Virus record (IMG/VR): IMGVR_UViG_2724679172_000017
DNA: 4,628 bases
Reading direction: 5' to 3' (one strand)
Origin: a virus
Taxonomy: Duplodnaviria; Heunggongvirae; Uroviricota; Caudoviricetes
This document shows, piece by piece, positions 1 to 4,628 of this stretch. The stretch's first letter is position 1. The number at the start of each line of letters is the position of its first letter. The notes under the pieces were generated by a model. It ran no database searches, was not told the DNA's origin, and worked only from the letters and a program-made list of their open reading frames with translations. The position numbers were made by a program, and so were the translations under genes.

Positions 1-813
<813 letters not shown>

Positions 814-857
814 TCAATATCAAACCGGGCCATGATTATTATTTTTACATCCGCAGT

Positions 858-1967
858 GTGAACACCGTTGGCAAATCGGCATTTGTGGAGGCTGTTGGCC
901 AGCCGAGTGATGATGCATCCGGCTATCTGGATTTTTTCAAAGGCGAGATAGGGAAAAGCCATCTGGCTCAGGAGCTGTGGACGCAGATTGATAACGGTCA
1001 GCTTGCGCCTGACCTGGCTGAAATCAGGACGTCCATTACGGATGTCAGCAATGAAATCACGCAGACCGTCAATAAGAAACTGGAAGACCAGAGTGCGGCA
1101 ATTCAGCAGATACAGAAGGTTCAGGTTGATACAAATAATAACCTGAACAGCATGTGGGCTGTGAAGCTGCAGCAGATGCAGGACGGACGCCTTTATATCG
1201 CGGGTATTGGTGCCGGTATTGAGAACACCCCTGACGGCATGCAGAGTCAGGTGCTGCTGGCGGCGGACAGGATTGCGATGATTAATCCTGCGAATGGCAA
1301 TACAAAGCCGATGTTTGTTGGGCAGGGCGATCAGATATTCATGAACGAAGTGTTCCTGAAATATCTGACGGCTCCCACCATTACCAGCGGTGGCAATCCC
1401 CCAACGTTTTCACTGACACCTGATGGTCGACTTTCTGCGAGAAATGCGGATATCAGCGGTAACGTGAATGCGAACTCCGGGACGCTCAATAATGTCACGA
1501 TTAACCAGAACTGTCGGATTCTGGGAAAACTGTCAGCTAACCAGATTGAAGGTGATATTGTCAAAACGGTGGGAAAAGCCTTTCCGAGAAATGGCAGTTA
1601 TGCCAGCGGTACAATAACGGTCACTGTGTACGATGACCAGGCTTTTGACCGTCAGATAGTCGTCCCCCCCGTTCTGTTTCGCGGTGGTAAGCATGAAAAC
1701 TTCAACAGCAACAACCAACAGTCATACTGGTATTCAACCTGTAAGCTGCAGGTGCTGAAGAACGGACAGGAAATCTTTCAGCAACCCGCGACGGATGTCA
1801 GCAGGGTATTTTCATCAGTCATTGATATGCCTGCCGGACACGGCCATGTCACCCTGACTTTCAATGTTTCTTCATATGGTGCAAATAACTGGACGCCAAC
1901 GACCAGTATCAGCGACCTTCTTGTTGTCGTGATGAAGAAATCAACAGCCGGCATCAGTATCAGTTGA
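858..1967 (+). CDS. J: J-like host-specificity protein, downstream ORF fragment (C-terminal receptor-binding region). The frame is actually open from 723; 858 is only the first GTG and is unlikely to be a real start
   Basis: ORF track 858..1967. Back-translating frame 3 upstream of 858 gives ...[28 protein letters not shown], continuous with J. No Shine-Dalgarno precedes the GTG at 858, so independent translation is not supported. Confidence 0.5.
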
Positions 1968-1985
1968 ATTTTAAAACCCAAATTC

Positions 1986-2014
1986 GGGCACCAGAAATGG
2001 TGCCTTTTTTATTT
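1986..2014 (+). terminator. Putative Rho-independent terminator / RNA hairpin between J and stf
   Basis: Stem GGCACC (1987-1992), loop AGAAAT, stem GGTGCC (1999-2004), followed by TTTTTTATTT (2005-2014). It lies 20 nt after the J stop. Confidence 0.5.
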
Positions 2015-2025
2015 GTGGAGTGAAT

Positions 2026-4047
2026 ATGGCAGTACAGATTTCAGGTGTGCTGAAAGACGGTGCAGGAAAACCGATACAGAACTGCACCATTCAGCTCAAA
2101 GCAAAACGTAACAGCACCACAGTTGTGGTGAACACGGTGGCCTCAGAAAATCCGGATGAAGCCGGACGTTACAGCATGGATGTTGAGTATGGCCAGTACA
2201 GCGTCGCCCTGCTGGTTGAAGGTTTTCCGCCTTCACATGCCGGGACCATCACCGTGTATGAGGATTCTAAGCCGGGGACATTGAATGATTTTCTGGGCGC
2301 TGCAACAGAAGATGATGTTTGTCCGGAGGCACTGTATCGTTTTGAAAAGATGGTGGAAGAGGCGGCACGCAACGCTGAAGCCGCCTCTCAGAGCGCAGCG
2401 GCAGCAAAGAAATCAGAAACAGCAGCGGCATCGTCCAGGAACGCGGCGAAAACATCAGAGACGAATGCAGGTAACAGCGCGAAAGCGGCAGCTTCTTCAA
2501 AAACAGCCGCACAAAACGCAGCAACAGCGGCAGAACGTTCAGAGACAAATGCCCGTGCGTCAGAAGAAGCCTCCGCAGACAGTGAAGAGGCTTCCCGCCG
2601 TAATGCAGAGTCAGCCGCTGAAAATGCCGGAGTCGCCACCACAAAAGCGCGGGAGGCCGCAGCAGACGCAACAAAGGCCGGGCAGAAAAAGGATGAGGCT
2701 CTGTCGGCAGCGACACGAGCTGAAAAGGCGGCAGACCGCGCAGAAGCCGCAGCGGAAGTGACTGCAGAGCCCTGTGCGAATATAGTGCCGCCGCTGCCTG
2801 ATGTGTGGATACCGTTTAACGATTCACTGGATATGATTACGGGTTTTTCGCCATCTTATAAAAAGATAGTTATTGGTGACGATGAAATAACAATGCCAGG
2901 CGACAAGATTGTTAAGTTTAAACGTGCTTCAACAGCAACGTATATTAATAAGTCCGGCCAACTCAAGCTTGCTGAAGTTGACGAACCGCGATTTGAGCGC
3001 GATGGCTTATTGATTGAAGGACAGAGGACAAATTATCTGAGGAACTCAAATAAACCAGACTCATGGACTGTTCATTCCGCACTGAATAAAACATTTGGCA
3101 CTGATAAACAGGGGTTCAATTATGCCACGGTGACACCCACGGAAAGTATAGTGGGAACAACAGGTGGCTATACTGTGCATGGTGTGGTTGCAGCAGACAG
3201 ATTCCCGCTGGCAAGTGGTGAATGTTTCACTTTTTCGTGCCGGGTTAAAGGCGCTAAAGCACGATGCAGGTTAAGAGTTTCAGTTATTATTGGTGGAACA
3301 GATACCTTCTCTGCTGACTCTTATCTTGATCTGGATACCCGGATCGCAACAGTAAGCGGTAATACATCCCTTATAACAGCCAAAGCTGAACAACAGGGCG
3401 AGTGGACCTACTATGAGGCCACTTATACAGCTAATACGGACATTGATACCGTTAACTGTGCTTTTTATATGACAAATAAAATAAGTAATGAGCCATTCTA
3501 TGATGACTCAACATTAACCATGACGACGCCGCAAATTGAACTGGGCAATACGGCATCGTCATTTATTGTAACTACAATGCCAACAACACGCGCAAGTGAT
3601 GTAGTTACTATCCCATCGCAGAATAACCTGTCAACACGGCCTTTTACGGTATTGTGCGAAGTAAGCAGGAACTGGAGTACACCGCCCAATGTTGCGCCAA
3701 GGATATTTGATGTTGGAGGGCACAGTATTGATGATAATTATTTATCGCTGGGGTTTGTTGCAACAGGAAAGATAAGCGCCAACGTAGGAATGGTTCAGCC
3801 ACAAATTGCCTCAGATGGAGAAAGGTTCATTGTGGGTGTGAGAGCTAAATCTGATTTATCAGTAAATGCAATATGCAATGGTAATTATACAACAAACCTT
3901 AATGGTAAAATATTTGGAGTTACAGCAACATCGTACCGGTTTGGTGGGCAGACCGCAGCAGGAACGCGTCATTTGTTTGGACACATCAGAAATTTCAGAG
4001 TCTGGTTTAAAGAATTAAATGACAGGCAAATCAAGGAGGCAGTATGA
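2026..4047 (+). CDS. stf: Side tail fibre protein (lambda Stf-like N-terminus; alanine-rich repeat shaft; divergent low-GC C-terminal receptor-binding domain with a LamG/ConA-like jelly-roll signature)
   Basis: The N-terminus MAVQISGVLKDGAGKPIQNCTIQLKAKRNSTTVVVNTVASENPDEAGRYSMDVEYGQYSVALLVEGFPPSHAGTITVYEDSKPGTLNDFL is near-identical to my recollection of lambda Stf (MAVKISGVLKDGTGKPVQNCTIQLKAKRNSTTVVVNTV...). The ATG at 2026 is preferred over the ORF-track GTG at 2020 because GGAG (2017-2020) sits 5 nt upstream and lambda Stf starts MAV. The C-terminus ...GTRHLFGHIRNFRVWFKELNDRQIKEAV resembles the terminal strand pattern of LamG-like domains. Stop TGA at 4045-4047. Confidence 0.85.
   Translation: MAVQISGVLKDGAGKPIQNCTIQLKAKRNSTTVVVNTVASENPDEAGRYSMDVEYGQYSVALLVEGFPPSHAGTITVYEDSKPGTLNDFLGAATEDDVCPEALYRFEKMVEEAARNAEAASQSAAAAKKSETAAASSRNAAKTSETNAGNSAKAAASSKTAAQNAATAAERSETNARASEEASADSEEASRRNAESAAENAGVATTKAREAAADATKAGQKKDEALSAATRAEKAADRAEAAAEVTAEPCANIVPPLPDVWIPFNDSLDMITGFSPSYKKIVIGDDEITMPGDKIVKFKRASTATYINKSGQLKLAEVDEPRFERDGLLIEGQRTNYLRNSNKPDSWTVHSALNKTFGTDKQGFNYATVTPTESIVGTTGGYTVHGVVAADRFPLASGECFTFSCRVKGAKARCRLRVSVIIGGTDTFSADSYLDLDTRIATVSGNTSLITAKAEQQGEWTYYEATYTANTDIDTVNCAFYMTNKISNEPFYDDSTLTMTTPQIELGNTASSFIVTTMPTTRASDVVTIPSQNNLSTRPFTVLCEVSRNWSTPPNVAPRIFDVGGHSIDDNYLSLGFVATGKISANVGMVQPQIASDGERFIVGVRAKSDLSVNAICNGNYTTNLNGKIFGVTATSYRFGGQTAAGTRHLFGHIRNFRVWFKELNDRQIKEAV
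2362..2760 (+). repeat. Alanine-rich low-complexity imperfect repeats in the stf shaft region (AAK(K/T)SET.A / ERSETNA motifs)
   Basis: Protein motifs KKSETAAASS, AKTSETNAGNS and ERSETNARAS recur. At DNA level tcagagacGaatgc (~2454) and tcagagacAaatgc (~2539) repeat. The region is open in several frames on both strands, typical of GC-rich GCN-codon repeats. Confidence 0.6.
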
Positions 4048-4322
4048 AAGATTTAACTTTGAAATTTCCTGGTAACAGAGAGTTTAAATCCTTCCTGTCA
4101 TCTCTTGACTGGGAGGAGGATGAAGACCTCCAGAATAAACTGTTAGTCGATGAAATTGGTTTCACCTACACAGAAACAGGGGTAACAGAAGAGGGAGAAC
4201 CTGTCTGTGTCCGGAATGACGGTTATTTTGTCAACATTCGCATTCTTGATGACTTGTTTGATGTTTCTGTATTCTCTGATTATGTCGTGGAGCTGGAAAC
4301 ACCGCTTCGGGAATGGAGCTGA
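4044..4322 (+). CDS. Hypothetical small acidic protein (92 aa), translationally coupled to stf; possible tail-fibre chaperone or accessory protein, function unknown
   Basis: Its ATG (4044-4046) overlaps the stf TGA (4045-4047) as ATGA. A strong SD AGGAGG (4034-4039) lies 4 nt upstream. GC is low (~41% by my count), like the stf C-terminal domain. By my count it has ~22 Asp/Glu against ~8 Lys/Arg. I recognise no family. Confidence 0.6.
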   Translation: MKDLTLKFPGNREFKSFLSSLDWEEDEDLQNKLLVDEIGFTYTETGVTEEGEPVCVRNDGYFVNIRILDDLFDVSVFSDYVVELETPLREWS

Positions 4323-4334
4323 AAGGAGGAAATA

Positions 4335-4628
4335 ATGGATATAAGCCCCTTACTTCATGCACTTTGTGCTGTGGCTGCGCAGATACTGGTTGGTCTTTTT
4401 ACCGGAAACTGGGCTTACGGAGCGATAGCCGGTTGTACGTTCTTCATTGCGCGTGAACATACCCAGGCAGAATATCGCTGGATTGAAATGTTCGGGCATG
4501 GCAAGCGAATGAATATGCCGTGGTGGGGCGGTTTTGATCCGCGAGCTTGGGATGTGGCAAGCCTGATGGATTTTGCTGTGCCGGTGGTGGCGTGTCTGCT
4601 GGTCTGGCTGTTGGTTAATCGTGGGTGA
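4335..4628 (+). CDS. Hypothetical small membrane protein (97 aa, 2-3 predicted transmembrane helices); moron-like gene downstream of the tail-fibre module
   Basis: SD AGGAGG (4324-4329) lies 5 nt before the ATG at 4335. Hydrophobic segments are LLHALCAVAAQILVGLFTG, AYGAIAGCTFFIA and ASLMDFAVPVVACLLVWLLV, around a polar core carrying a WWGGFDPRAWD motif. GC is ~52%, higher than the preceding gene. There is no lipobox or classical signal peptide. Stop TGA at 4626-4628. Confidence 0.6.
   Translation: MDISPLLHALCAVAAQILVGLFTGNWAYGAIAGCTFFIAREHTQAEYRWIEMFGHGKRMNMPWWGGFDPRAWDVASLMDFAVPVVACLLVWLLVNRG

What the first reader, a model, noticed from the sequence alone, without database searches (positions are those of the whole stretch)
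4335..4628. Small predicted membrane protein immediately downstream of the tail-fibre cassette (moron candidate)
A 97-aa ORF with an excellent RBS, 2-3 hydrophobic helices and a WWGGFDPRAWD polar motif. Its GC rises again to ~52%, so it appears to be a separate insertion from the low-GC fibre cassette. The region distal to tail-fibre genes in lambdoid phages (the b region) is a known site for accessory genes, including receptor-blocking superinfection-exclusion proteins such as Cor, and for anti-phage cargo. A membrane protein here is a reasonable candidate for exclusion or abortive-infection function, but this is unproven.
Basis: inference. Interest (0 to 1): 0.55.

Follow-up and report, generated by a model that had tools for sequence, protein, structure and literature searches.

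The report
Small membrane protein trailing tail-fibre genes
This is a real, strongly conserved 97-residue inner-membrane protein of unknown function that sits directly after the host-recognition (tail-fibre or tailspike) gene in many unrelated phages and in about a third of complete E. coli genomes; it is probably an accessory gene that benefits the lysogen, but nothing yet shows what it does.

Summary
The ORF at 4335-4628 is real. It has an AGGAGG ribosome-binding site, encodes 97 aa, and is 100% identical to phage 21 CPT_21_24 and WP_000355360.1 ("Ybl63", PHROG 1443, function unknown). pN/pS among E. coli alleles is 0.1-0.2, and it occurs at 3,932 places in 1,903 of 5,426 complete E. coli genomes.

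AlphaFold gives a confident three-helix membrane bundle (pLDDT 93.7). H8, R40-E41, Q44, E46, W72, D79 and P83 are near-invariant, probably at the cytoplasmic face.

There is no match in Pfam, NCBIfam, PADLOC or PDB, and no relation to Cor, T4 Imm, SieA, HK97 gp15, GtrA or LydA.

In phages the gene is almost always the first gene after the receptor-binding gene, whatever the RBP type: lambda-like, P22-like, P2/HP1-like, P1-like, hapunavirus and Kuttervirus-like. In two virulent phages examined it survives only as a broken remnant. Solitary chromosomal copies sit at fixed loci in Aeromonas, Leclercia, Silvania and sphingomonads.

Here it has no promoter or terminator of its own. Its GC matches the phage backbone; the low-GC fibre cassette is the foreign piece.

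Verdict: a genuine accessory membrane protein of a new, uncharacterised family. "Moron" and "exclusion" remain plausible but unproven.

The parts
4324..4329 (+). Shine-Dalgarno sequence AGGAGG, 5-nt spacer to the ATG
   Evidence: Read directly from the sequence. Phage 21 annotators mark the same site.
4335..4628 (+). orf97: 97-aa three-helix inner-membrane protein. Identical to phage 21 CPT_21_24, WP_000355360.1 and 'Ybl63'; member of PHROG 1443.
   Evidence: Purifying selection.
4344..4403 (+). Helix 1 / TM1 (residues 4-23), with a conserved stripe H8-A12-Q16-G20-G24
   Evidence: AlphaFold model, pLDDT 93.7. Conservation in 137 sequences non-redundant at 70% identity.
4410..4493 (+). Helix 2 (residues 26-53). 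Residues 26-39 are hydrophobic (TM2); residues 40-53 are polar and contain the R40-E41-H-T-Q44-A45-E46-Y47-R48-W49 core at nt 4452-4481.
4494..4553 (+).
   Evidence: W72 is 100% conserved, R58 91%, P62 82%.
4554..4622 (+). Helix 3 / TM3 (residues 74-96), with D79 (89%) and P83 (97%) near its start
4044..4322 (+). orf92: soluble acidic 92-aa protein (PHROG 1361). Its start overlaps the stf stop (ATGA). It is a fibre-linked partner, not part of the orf97 module.
2026..4047 (+). Side tail fibre gene stf. The N-terminal part is conserved (phage_tail_N, GC 55%). The distal part is low-GC (from about 2791, GC 42.8%). Positions 3024-3935 have no nucleotide match in phage 21.
1986..2005 (+). Intrinsic terminator between J and stf. 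Transcription of the stf-orf92-orf97 block would have to read through it (inference: by Q antitermination, as in lambdoid late operons).
   Evidence: The same element is annotated in phage 21.

Best explanation
orf97 encodes a three-helix inner-membrane protein of a conserved, uncharacterised family. It is neither a virion part nor a fibre chaperone. It is an accessory gene that travels as the 3' end of receptor-binding-protein (RBP) cassettes. In this window it is the last cistron of the late tail operon, translated from its own strong ribosome-binding site.

The most likely role is to make the lysogen (and possibly the late-infected cell) refractory to further phage attack at the level of the cytoplasmic membrane. 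This would be superinfection exclusion that does not depend on the receptor. The working part would be a conserved polar pocket (H8, R40-E41, Q44, E46, R48, R58, W72, D79), probably at the cytoplasmic face, that binds a conserved host membrane component.

Shown: the gene is real and under selection; the protein is a helical membrane protein with this conserved cluster; it follows RBP genes; it is independent of RBP type; it is decayed in two virulent phages examined; solitary chromosomal copies exist.

Inferred: the topology, the spatial clustering of the conserved residues, expression in the lysogen, and the exclusion function itself.
For: - Position. In 8 of 10 independent look-ups with Pfam-annotated neighbours the gene is the first gene after a tail fibre or tailspike (in two of the eight, one small ORF lies between). 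The same holds in phage 21, Gally, JEP4, 611R6 and phiHAP-1 and in four other E. coli prophage or plasmid types. Of 77 upstream ORFs from about 50 loci in other genomes, every named PHROG family among the 25 most frequent is tail or tail fibre.
- This is the slot used by known conversion and exclusion genes: Cor in N15, gtrABC in P22, and an OafA acetylase in 611R6.
- Lysogeny-linked maintenance. The gene is intact in temperate phages but is a truncated remnant in virulent phages HC6 and KFSST3, directly after their RBP genes.
- Cell-autonomous value. Solitary copies are kept at syntenic chromosomal loci in five Aeromonas genomes, at 84-97% identity like their flanking genes. Solitary chromosomal copies also occur in Silvania and Leclercia and in sphingomonads.
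- Membrane protein with a conserved polar site. Lys+Arg counts are 5.7 in the loop plus 0.7 in the N-tail, against 0.1 in the turn and 0.6 in the C-tail. This places the conserved loop in the cytoplasm.
- Purifying selection in prophages.
- In Gally the gene lies behind a terminator, as a separate unit.
Against: - There is no experimental evidence of any kind.
- In this window and in phage 21 the gene has no recognisable promoter of its own, so expression in the lysogen is unproven.
- It shows no similarity to any known exclusion or defence protein: PADLOC gives none, and hhalign probabilities are at most 1.1% against T4 Imm, HK97 gp15, P22 SieA, N15 Cor, GtrA and a LydA-like holin.
- Known exclusion proteins are usually narrow and fast-evolving. 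This family keeps invariant residues across Gamma-, Beta- and Alphaproteobacteria.
- E. coli genomes carry a median of 2 and up to 7 copies. That redundancy is not expected for a host-level protective function.
- An intact copy lies between two tailspike genes in a Kuttervirus-like contig.
Confidence: 0.33

Rival explanations
1. Envelope-conversion factor or minimal membrane enzyme. The His/Glu/Asp plus Arg cluster at the membrane face would bind a metal or a phosphorylated lipid, such as an undecaprenyl-phosphate-linked glycan intermediate or a phospholipid. This would alter surface-polysaccharide or lipid synthesis. The surface change would be the benefit to lysogens and to the bacteria that keep chromosomal copies.
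For: - Every RBP seen next to the gene is of a glycan-binding or glycan-cleaving type: CBM/Laminin_G-like fibre, P22-type tailspike, pectate-lyase spikes, GDSL-esterase spike, S74 fibres.
- In P22-like phages the gene occupies the tailspike-to-int interval that holds gtrABC in P22 and an OafA O-acetylase in 611R6.
- Invariant H8, E41, E46 and D79 together with R40, R48 and R58, plus a small-residue stripe along TM1, look more like a ligand or catalytic site than a protein-blocking surface.
- The chromosomal copy in Aeromonas lies near two lipid A acyltransferase genes.
- Broad conservation fits a universal small-molecule target.
Against: - 97 residues is very small for an enzyme. That the conserved residues cluster in space is inferred from helix positions, not measured.
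- Chromosomal neighbours differ between genera, so there is no pathway signal.
- The RBP association may simply reflect that most enterobacterial prophage RBPs target glycans.
Confidence: 0.2
2. Passenger gene and recombination anchor. The protein would have an ordinary cellular membrane role with no phage-directed activity. Its conserved DNA, together with the conserved 5' part of stf, would serve mainly as the 3' homology flank that lets RBP cassettes be swapped between prophages.
For: - Its GC matches the backbone, while the cassette between the stf N-terminal part and orf97 is low-GC.
- Window and phage 21 align on both flanks, but positions 3024-3935 do not align.
- orf97 is at least 90% identical at the nucleotide level in nearly all of its 3,932 E. 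coli places, next to different upstream genes.
- Tfa remnants follow it in DLP12-type loci.
- Chromosomal copies exist without any phage.
Against: - Strong protein-level constraint across classes of Proteobacteria and pN/pS of 0.1-0.2 show that the protein itself is selected in prophages.
- A mere anchor would not need an intact reading frame.
- The gene decays in virulent phages even though they retain the adjacent RBP.
Confidence: 0.15
3. Lysis-related membrane protein: a holin, antiholin or channel-like factor made late with the tail genes.
For: - About 100 aa with three helices is the size and shape of class I holins.
- It is the last cistron of a late operon here.
- It lies directly upstream of a LydA-like gene and LydB in a P1-like plasmid, and upstream of two small membrane ORFs plus a 183-aa ORF in a Comamonas prophage.
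- The A12-Q16-G20-G24 stripe resembles a glycine-zipper packing motif (inference).
- One family member gives a weak Phage_holin_8 hit (E 0.0036).
Against: - No holin family reaches Pfam's threshold. hhalign against the LydA-like holin gives a probability of 1.1%.
- The charge distribution predicts N-in/C-out, the opposite of class I holins.
- An invariant polar loop is atypical of holins.
- From general knowledge, phage 21 has its own lysis cassette (S21, R21, Rz/Rz1) elsewhere in the genome.
- Chromosomal copies stand alone, without an endolysin.
- The gene is decayed in two virulent phages.
Confidence: 0.08
4. Assembly or maturation factor for the adjacent receptor-binding protein.
For: Strict adjacency to the RBP gene, often with overlapping or touching reading frames (-4 to +43 nt).
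Against: - The sequence is nearly the same next to unrelated RBP folds.
- It is an integral membrane protein, whereas known fibre chaperones are soluble.
- Here the fibre already has its own partner, orf92.
- Solitary chromosomal copies exist with no RBP nearby.
- Remnants in virulent phages sit next to RBP genes that are annotated as intact.
Confidence: 0.04

Closest known systems
Cor (phi80 / N15 gene 24 / HK022) and T5 Llp: receptor-blocking exclusion lipoproteins
   Same: Small accessory genes encoded next to the host-range or tail-fibre genes. N15 cor lies after gene 21 (tail tip fibre) and genes 22-23. They are dispensable for virion formation.
   Different: Cor is an outer-membrane lipoprotein with a lipobox (LLLSGC) and, from general knowledge, is specific for FhuA. 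orf97 has no lipobox, has three membrane helices, and is associated with many RBP classes. hhalign probability is 0.2%.
T4 Imm, P22 SieA and HK97 gp15: inner-membrane proteins that block entry of superinfecting DNA
   Same: Small, solitary inner-membrane proteins that act without partner genes. This is the mechanistic class proposed here.
   Different: No sequence relationship: hhalign probabilities are 0.2%, 0.2% and 0.5%. Their genomic positions differ. None has the conserved RE-x-x-Q-x-E / W / D signature or such a broad taxonomic spread.
Lysogenic-conversion genes in the tailspike-to-integrase interval of P22-like phages (gtrABC; OafA/Oac O-acetylases)
   Same: Same slot: tailspike, then this gene, then int in Gally, JEP4 and 611R6, against tailspike, gtrCBA, attP, int in P22. 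All are membrane proteins acting on the envelope.
   Different: No similarity to GtrA (hhalign probability 0.1%). It is a single 97-aa protein rather than a three-gene system or a 330-aa or larger acyltransferase. It is on the same strand as the RBP gene and often translationally packed against it.
Class I holins (for example lambda S105); LydA-like holin of P1-type plasmids
   Same: About 100 aa, three membrane helices, late expression.
   Different: No family match. Predicted topology is the opposite. It has an invariant polar loop. It is not next to an endolysin in phage 21.
PHROG 1443 / UniRef 'Ybl63' / phage 21 CPT_21_24 'putative membrane protein'
   Same: This is that protein: a full-length match at E 2.4e-58 and 100% identity.
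   Different: These entries carry no function. The phage 21 annotators recorded 2 TMDs and a 29-aa signal sequence. The family-wide conservation of H8 and Q16 within that stretch, and the AlphaFold three-helix bundle, argue against a cleaved signal peptide.

Membership tests
PHROG 1443 (uncharacterised phage protein family) | Full-length match to the family HMM | tested here: met
   E 2.4e-58, residues 1-96 against profile positions 1-96 of 97.
Moron (Hendrix/Juhala sense) | Present in some but not other related phages, as an independent module | tested here: met
   orf97 is at 3,932 places and orf92 at 1,203 places in E. coli genomes. It follows at least five different upstream RBP types in E. 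coli alone.
Moron (Hendrix/Juhala sense) | Own promoter upstream and terminator downstream | tested here: not met
   No sigma-70-like promoter or intrinsic terminator flanks the gene in the window or in phage 21; these are consensus scans only. In Gally a terminator (L004 4789-4809) and an AT-rich spacer do precede it, so the feature is met in some relatives.
Moron (Hendrix/Juhala sense) | Base composition different from the surrounding phage genes | tested here: not met
   52.7% GC is close to the backbone (phage 21 genome 51%, PMC9119081; stf N-terminal part 55.4%). The atypical segment is the fibre C-terminus plus orf92 at 42-43%.
Moron (Hendrix/Juhala sense) | Expressed from the repressed prophage | not testable with these tools
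   Needs RNA-seq or reporter data from a lysogen.
Cor / Llp receptor-blocking lipoproteins | Signal peptide with lipobox (L-x-x-C) and outer-membrane lipoprotein character | tested here: not met
   The only early Cys is C11, in the context H-A-L-C, which is not a lipobox. N15 Cor has LLLSGC. The model is a three-helix bundle.
Cor / Llp receptor-blocking lipoproteins | Sequence relationship to Cor | tested here: not met
   hhalign probability 0.2%. No Pfam hit.
Inner-membrane exclusion proteins (T4 Imm, P22 SieA, HK97 gp15) | Sequence relationship to any of the three | tested here: not met
   hhalign probabilities 0.2%, 0.2% and 0.5%.
Inner-membrane exclusion proteins (T4 Imm, P22 SieA, HK97 gp15) | Blocks DNA entry of superinfecting phage when expressed alone | not testable with these tools
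   Requires plating, adsorption and DNA-entry assays.
Class I holin | Three TMDs with N-out/C-in topology | tested here: inconclusive
   Three helices are present. Lys+Arg distribution favours N-in/C-out. The TMHMM run by the phage 21 annotators gave 2 TMDs, N-in/C-in.
Class I holin | Match to a holin family, or adjacency to an endolysin | tested here: not met
   No holin family at threshold. LydA-like holin gives probability 1.1%. Its neighbours in phage 21 are orf92 and sitD.
Known anti-phage defence systems (PADLOC-DB) | Match to any defence-protein model | tested here: not met
   0 families at E<=1.
GtrA-type O-antigen conversion proteins | Sequence relationship to GtrA, and gtrB/gtrC partners | tested here: not met
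   hhalign probability 0.1%. No gtrB or gtrC nearby.

The most novel reading that the evidence does not exclude
The family is a minimal three-helix membrane machine: an enzyme, a lipid- or metal-binding module, or an oligomeric channel. It would be built around the invariant H8 / R40-E41 / Q44 / E46 / W72 / D79 site. Temperate phages of at least six architectures carry it as the fixed 3' end of swappable receptor-binding cassettes, and bacteria have repeatedly domesticated it. It would confer a receptor-independent, broad block to phage infection or a generic envelope change. That would be a new and very widespread class of lysogenic-conversion or exclusion function, present in about 35% of complete E. 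coli genomes.
Probability: 0.15. Interest if true: 0.7.

Novelty: new variant of a known kind. Interest (0 to 1): 0.45.

Why it matters
The gene is in classical phage 21 and at about 3,900 sites in 1,903 of 5,426 complete E. coli genomes, often several times per genome. It also occurs in phages of Aeromonas and Halomonas, in prophages of Citrobacter, Enterobacter, Leclercia and Comamonas, and on a phage-like Salmonella contig. Yet no database assigns it a function and no paper in the searched library mentions it.

Its fixed place directly behind the receptor-binding gene has two practical uses. It marks the 3' boundary of RBP cassettes, which helps with host-range engineering and prophage annotation. 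It also makes the gene a strong candidate for a general, receptor-independent exclusion or envelope-conversion function. If that function is real, it would affect phage-therapy host-range predictions for a large share of clinical E. coli, including ST131/ExPEC-type prophages that carry sitABCD next to it.

If the protein turns out to be inert in such assays, it is still a well-defined conserved small membrane protein with an invariant polar site, and worth a structure-function study.

Tried and rejected
1. Homology searches found nothing usable.
- Pfam, NCBIfam and PADLOC on the protein, and Pfam on 47 family members, gave nothing. The only hits were a weak PhoR N-terminal match from membrane-helix composition, and a single sub-threshold holin hit.
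- A PDB sequence-profile search gave 0 hits at E<=10.

2. Fold searches found nothing usable.
- Foldseek against viral models gave nothing at E<=0.001.
- The AlphaFold-database library was unavailable.

3. Direct profile comparisons with T4 Imm, HK97 gp15, P22 SieA, GtrA, N15 Cor and a LydA-like holin were all negative.

4. I looked for fusions or partner genes. All 437 family clusters are stand-alone proteins of 58-146 aa. Chromosomal neighbours differ between genera. No guilt-by-association is possible.

5. Literature searches for the accession, the PHROG number, 'Ybl63', phage 21 with sit, and exclusion proteins downstream of tail genes returned nothing on this protein. The phage 21 genome paper gives no function.

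6. An IMG/VR scan returned only near-identical E. coli copies, so it was useless for diversity. The species-level genome scan was used instead.

7. My own greedy ORF caller missed the small gene in GC-rich loci. I replaced it with HMM-anchored neighbour extraction.

8. ligA as a universal sphingomonad neighbour was rejected: it is upstream in only 4 of about 40 loci.

9. orf92 structure: a confident model, but no structural neighbour.

10. Rfam gave no RNA in the window.

11. Cleaved signal peptide (SignalP note in the phage 21 record): rejected because H8 and Q16 inside that stretch are 98% and 75% conserved across the family.
Full report
**1.

The window carries an ATG-initiated ORF at 4335-4628 on the + strand. 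It encodes 97 aa and its TGA stop forms the last three bases of the window. AGGAGG lies at 4324-4329, 5 nt before the ATG. The upstream 92-aa ORF ends at 4322. The peptide contains WWGGFDPRAWD at residues 63-73. GC is 52.7%, against 41.9% for orf92 and 42.8% for the distal half of the fibre gene. Rfam finds no RNA in the window.

**2. It is a real gene under selection**

- The protein is 100% identical to phage 21 CPT_21_24 ("putative membrane protein") and to WP_000355360.1 in E. coli prophages. UniRef calls it Ybl63.
- It matches PHROG 1443 (function unknown) over its full length at E 2.4e-58.
- A word-indexed search found 577 related 90%-identity clusters. An exhaustive profile search found 437 clusters at 50% identity with E<=1e-3 and 210 with E<=1e-10. 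All are stand-alone proteins of 58-146 aa.
- Among 36 E. coli nucleotide alleles, pN/pS against the window allele is 0.1-0.2. Most amino-acid changes fall in helix 1 (S4T, L6F, I17V/L, V19I), and none falls in residues 27-57.
- In complete E. coli genomes the gene occurs at 3,932 places in 1,903 of 5,426 genomes. The median is 2 and the maximum 7 per genome. 57 places are on plasmids.

**3. Surroundings in the window**

The window is the tail end of a phage 21-type lambdoid prophage, in this order:
- the 3' part of J;
- a terminator at 1986-2005;
- the side tail fibre gene stf (2026-4047), with a phage_tail_N domain and a weak, sub-threshold CBM-like hit in the distal part;
- orf92 (4044-4322), whose start overlaps the stf stop;
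- orf97.

Beyond the window, both in an E. coli chromosome and in phage 21 itself, come sitDCBA on the opposite strand, a few small ORFs, an icd fragment, attP and int.

About 30 of 80 IMG/VR prophage calls end exactly at this gene's stop. This probably explains where the window ends.

**4. orf92 and orf97 are separate modules**

orf92 is 31-32% identical (E 1e-13 to 1e-15) to the 94- and 95-aa ORFs that follow each of two Laminin_G_3 fibre genes on a P1-like Leclercia plasmid. It is found at only 1,203 places in E. coli, and its detected relatives come only from Escherichia and Shigella sources. It therefore belongs with this class of fibre.

orf97 occurs at three times as many places and with other upstream genes.

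The composition argument needs inverting. orf97 (52.7%) resembles the backbone: the phage 21 genome is 51% GC (PMC9119081) and the stf N-terminal part is 55.4%. The stf distal part plus orf92 is the low-GC foreign piece. The window and phage 21 align on both flanks (774-3023 and 3936-4628), but not across 3024-3935. So a different distal fibre domain sits between conserved flanks.

**5. The protein**

AlphaFold2 on a 39-sequence alignment gives pLDDT 93.7 and three helices at 4-23, 26-53 and 74-96, with a loop at 54-73.

Conservation in 137 family members non-redundant at 70% identity:

| Residue | Conserved |
|---|---|
| W72 | 100% |
| R40, E41 | 99% each |
| H8 | 98% |
| Q44, E46, P83 | 97% each |
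| A45 | 96% |
| R58 | 91% |
| R48, D79 | 89% each |

A stripe H8-A12-Q16-G20-G24 runs along helix 1.

Mean Lys+Arg counts are 0.66 in the N-tail, 0.10 in the helix 1-2 turn, 5.7 in the loop (residues 40-75) and 0.59 in the C-tail. By the positive-inside rule this gives N-in, conserved loop in the cytoplasm, and C-out. This is an inference. The phage 21 annotators' TMHMM run gave two TMDs with N-in/C-in, and SignalP gave a 29-aa signal sequence. The conservation of H8 and Q16 inside that stretch argues against a cleaved signal peptide.

From the helix positions, H8, R40/E41 and D79 all lie at the same end of the bundle. I infer that they form one polar site, but I could not inspect the model coordinates.

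**6. No known relatives**

- Pfam, NCBIfam and PADLOC give nothing at threshold.
- A PDB sequence profile gives no hit at E<=10.
- Profile comparisons with T4 Imm, HK97 gp15, P22 SieA, GtrA, N15 Cor and a LydA-like holin give probabilities of 0.1-1.1%.
- N15 Cor has a lipobox. This protein has none.
- No paper in the library mentions the accession, the PHROG number or Ybl63. The phage 21 genome announcement assigns no function.

**7. The main new result: a positional rule**

In phages the gene is the first gene after the distal receptor-binding gene, on the same strand, with spacing from -4 nt to a few tens of nt. Sometimes one small ORF lies between.

| Phage type | Example and arrangement |
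|---|---|
| Lambda-like | Phage 21 and E. coli prophages |
| Lambdoid, DLP12-type loci | After a "tail fiber domain" protein, followed by a tfa remnant |
| Prophage at dusA | After a pyocin-knob S74 fibre, followed by a retron |
| 106-kb plasmid | After a "tail fiber domain" protein |
| P22-like | Gally, JEP4 and 611R6, between tailspike and int. P22 holds gtrABC in this interval; in 611R6 an OafA acetylase lies just upstream |
| P2/HP1-like prophages | Leclercia, Enterobacter and Aeromonas |
| Hapunavirus | phiHAP-1, after the tail-fibre assembly gene. A Halomonas chromosome has a fibre gene, then a 128-aa ORF, then the gene |
| P1-like plasmid | Before a LydA-like gene and LydB |
| Kuttervirus-like contig | Between two tailspike genes |
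| Citrobacter prophage | J, then a pectate-lyase spike, then the gene |
| Metagenomic prophage | After a GDSL-esterase spike |
| Comamonas prophage | After a 2,520-aa J-like protein and a 72-aa ORF |

Eight of ten look-ups with annotated neighbours follow the rule. Of 77 upstream ORFs from about 50 loci in other genomes, every named PHROG family among the 25 most frequent is tail or tail fibre.

The RBP classes differ widely, while the membrane protein stays about 60-100% identical.

**8. Two further patterns**

- In virulent phages HC6 and KFSST3 the gene survives only as a broken remnant directly after the RBP gene. In HC6 a 51-aa ORF ends just after the WWGGFD motif. In KFSST3 the reading frame stops after residue 35.
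- Solitary copies with no phage genes nearby sit at fixed chromosomal loci:
  - Between pirin and a RIO1 kinase in five Aeromonas genomes, at 84-97% identity, like their flanking genes.
  - Next to a porin and pyruvate:flavodoxin oxidoreductase in Silvania.
  - Next to metabolic genes in Leclercia.
  - After ligA in four sphingomonad-type loci.

Together these patterns say three things. The protein is not needed for lytic growth. It is kept in temperate phages. It has value to a cell on its own.

**9. Expression signals**

Consensus scans find no promoter or terminator around orf97 in the window or in phage 21. It therefore reads as the last cistron of the late tail operon.

In Gally a strong intrinsic terminator (L004 4789-4809) and a 190-nt AT-rich spacer separate it from the tailspike gene. 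There it looks like an independent unit.

Whether it is expressed in a lysogen cannot be decided here.

**10. Interpretation**

My best-supported reading (about one chance in three) is an accessory inner-membrane protein that protects the lysogen, and perhaps the late-infected cell, against further phage attack at the cytoplasmic membrane, independently of the receptor. It would act through the conserved polar pocket.

A close rival (about one in five) is a minimal ligand-binding or catalytic module that alters lipid-linked envelope synthesis. Its support is the glycan-directed RBPs beside it, the gtr/OafA slot, and the look of the conserved site.

Less likely are:
- a passenger gene whose conserved DNA serves as the 3' homology flank for RBP-cassette exchange;
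- a lysis-related channel;
- an RBP assembly factor.

**11. Novelty and score**

The ORF is catalogued but uncharacterised. If it works as proposed, it is a new family within the known kind "phage accessory membrane protein encoded next to the RBP". It is unrelated in sequence and fold to the known examples and far more widespread.

The positional rule, the decay in virulent phages and the domesticated chromosomal copies are, as far as the searched literature shows, undescribed.

Interest is moderate (0.45). It is a solid, testable lead in a classical phage and in a third of E. coli genomes, but there is no functional evidence yet.

Noticed in passing
window 732-813: A 41-nt tandem direct duplication (732-772 and 773-813, 98% identical) lies inside the J gene and shifts the reading frame. 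The J ORF ends at 804 and a new ORF starts at 858. Identity to the E. coli 4/1-1 prophage switches from 95.2% (1-772) to 99.7% (774-4628) at this junction. It could be a recombination scar, a real J pseudogene or an assembly chimera.
   Followed up: partly
window 3024-3935 (within stf): The window aligns to phage 21 on both sides (774-3023 at 95.6% and 3936-4628 at 94.4%) but not across this 0.9-kb stretch of the fibre gene. A different distal receptor-binding domain appears to sit between conserved flanks. The low-GC segment starts near 2791.
   Followed up: partly
[not shown]
   Followed up: partly
L003 6386-9835 (phage 21); L001 12721-16170: The iron/manganese transporter operon sitDCBA lies convergent to orf97, between it and attP/int, both in phage 21 and in human-isolate E. 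coli prophages integrated at icd. This is a virulence-associated cargo carried by the phage.
   Followed up: no
L169 4396-6295: In an E. coli prophage at dusA the family gene, here with an internal stop, is followed directly by a reverse transcriptase plus a SLATT-domain gene (retron-type defence), then DinI and int. The position just beyond this gene acts as a cargo and defence hot spot.
   Followed up: no
L014-L087 (IMG/VR loci): About 30 of the 80 IMG/VR prophage predictions that carry the gene end exactly 3 nt after the match, at its stop codon. Prophage-boundary callers seem to cut here and lose the sit cargo, attP and int.
   Followed up: no
L166 3965-4120; L165 4980-5105: Virulent phages HC6 (and, by identical partial matches, ST1UNAM, PBM-2 and PBM-3) and Kuttervirus KFSST3 carry unannotated, truncated remnants of the family gene directly after their RBP genes. 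This suggests the RBP cassettes were imported from temperate phages.
   Followed up: yes
L008, L094, L096, L100, L101 around 8001-8310: A chromosomal copy of the family is syntenic in five Aeromonas genomes, in the order polB, pirin, the gene, RIO1 kinase, two lipid A acyltransferases, SLAC1. No phage genes are nearby.
   Followed up: yes
L007 6300-7521: In a Comamonas prophage the family gene is followed by two small multi-helix membrane ORFs (125 and 99 aa) and a 183-aa ORF. None has a Pfam hit. They could be a lysis cassette, but this was not tested.
   Followed up: no
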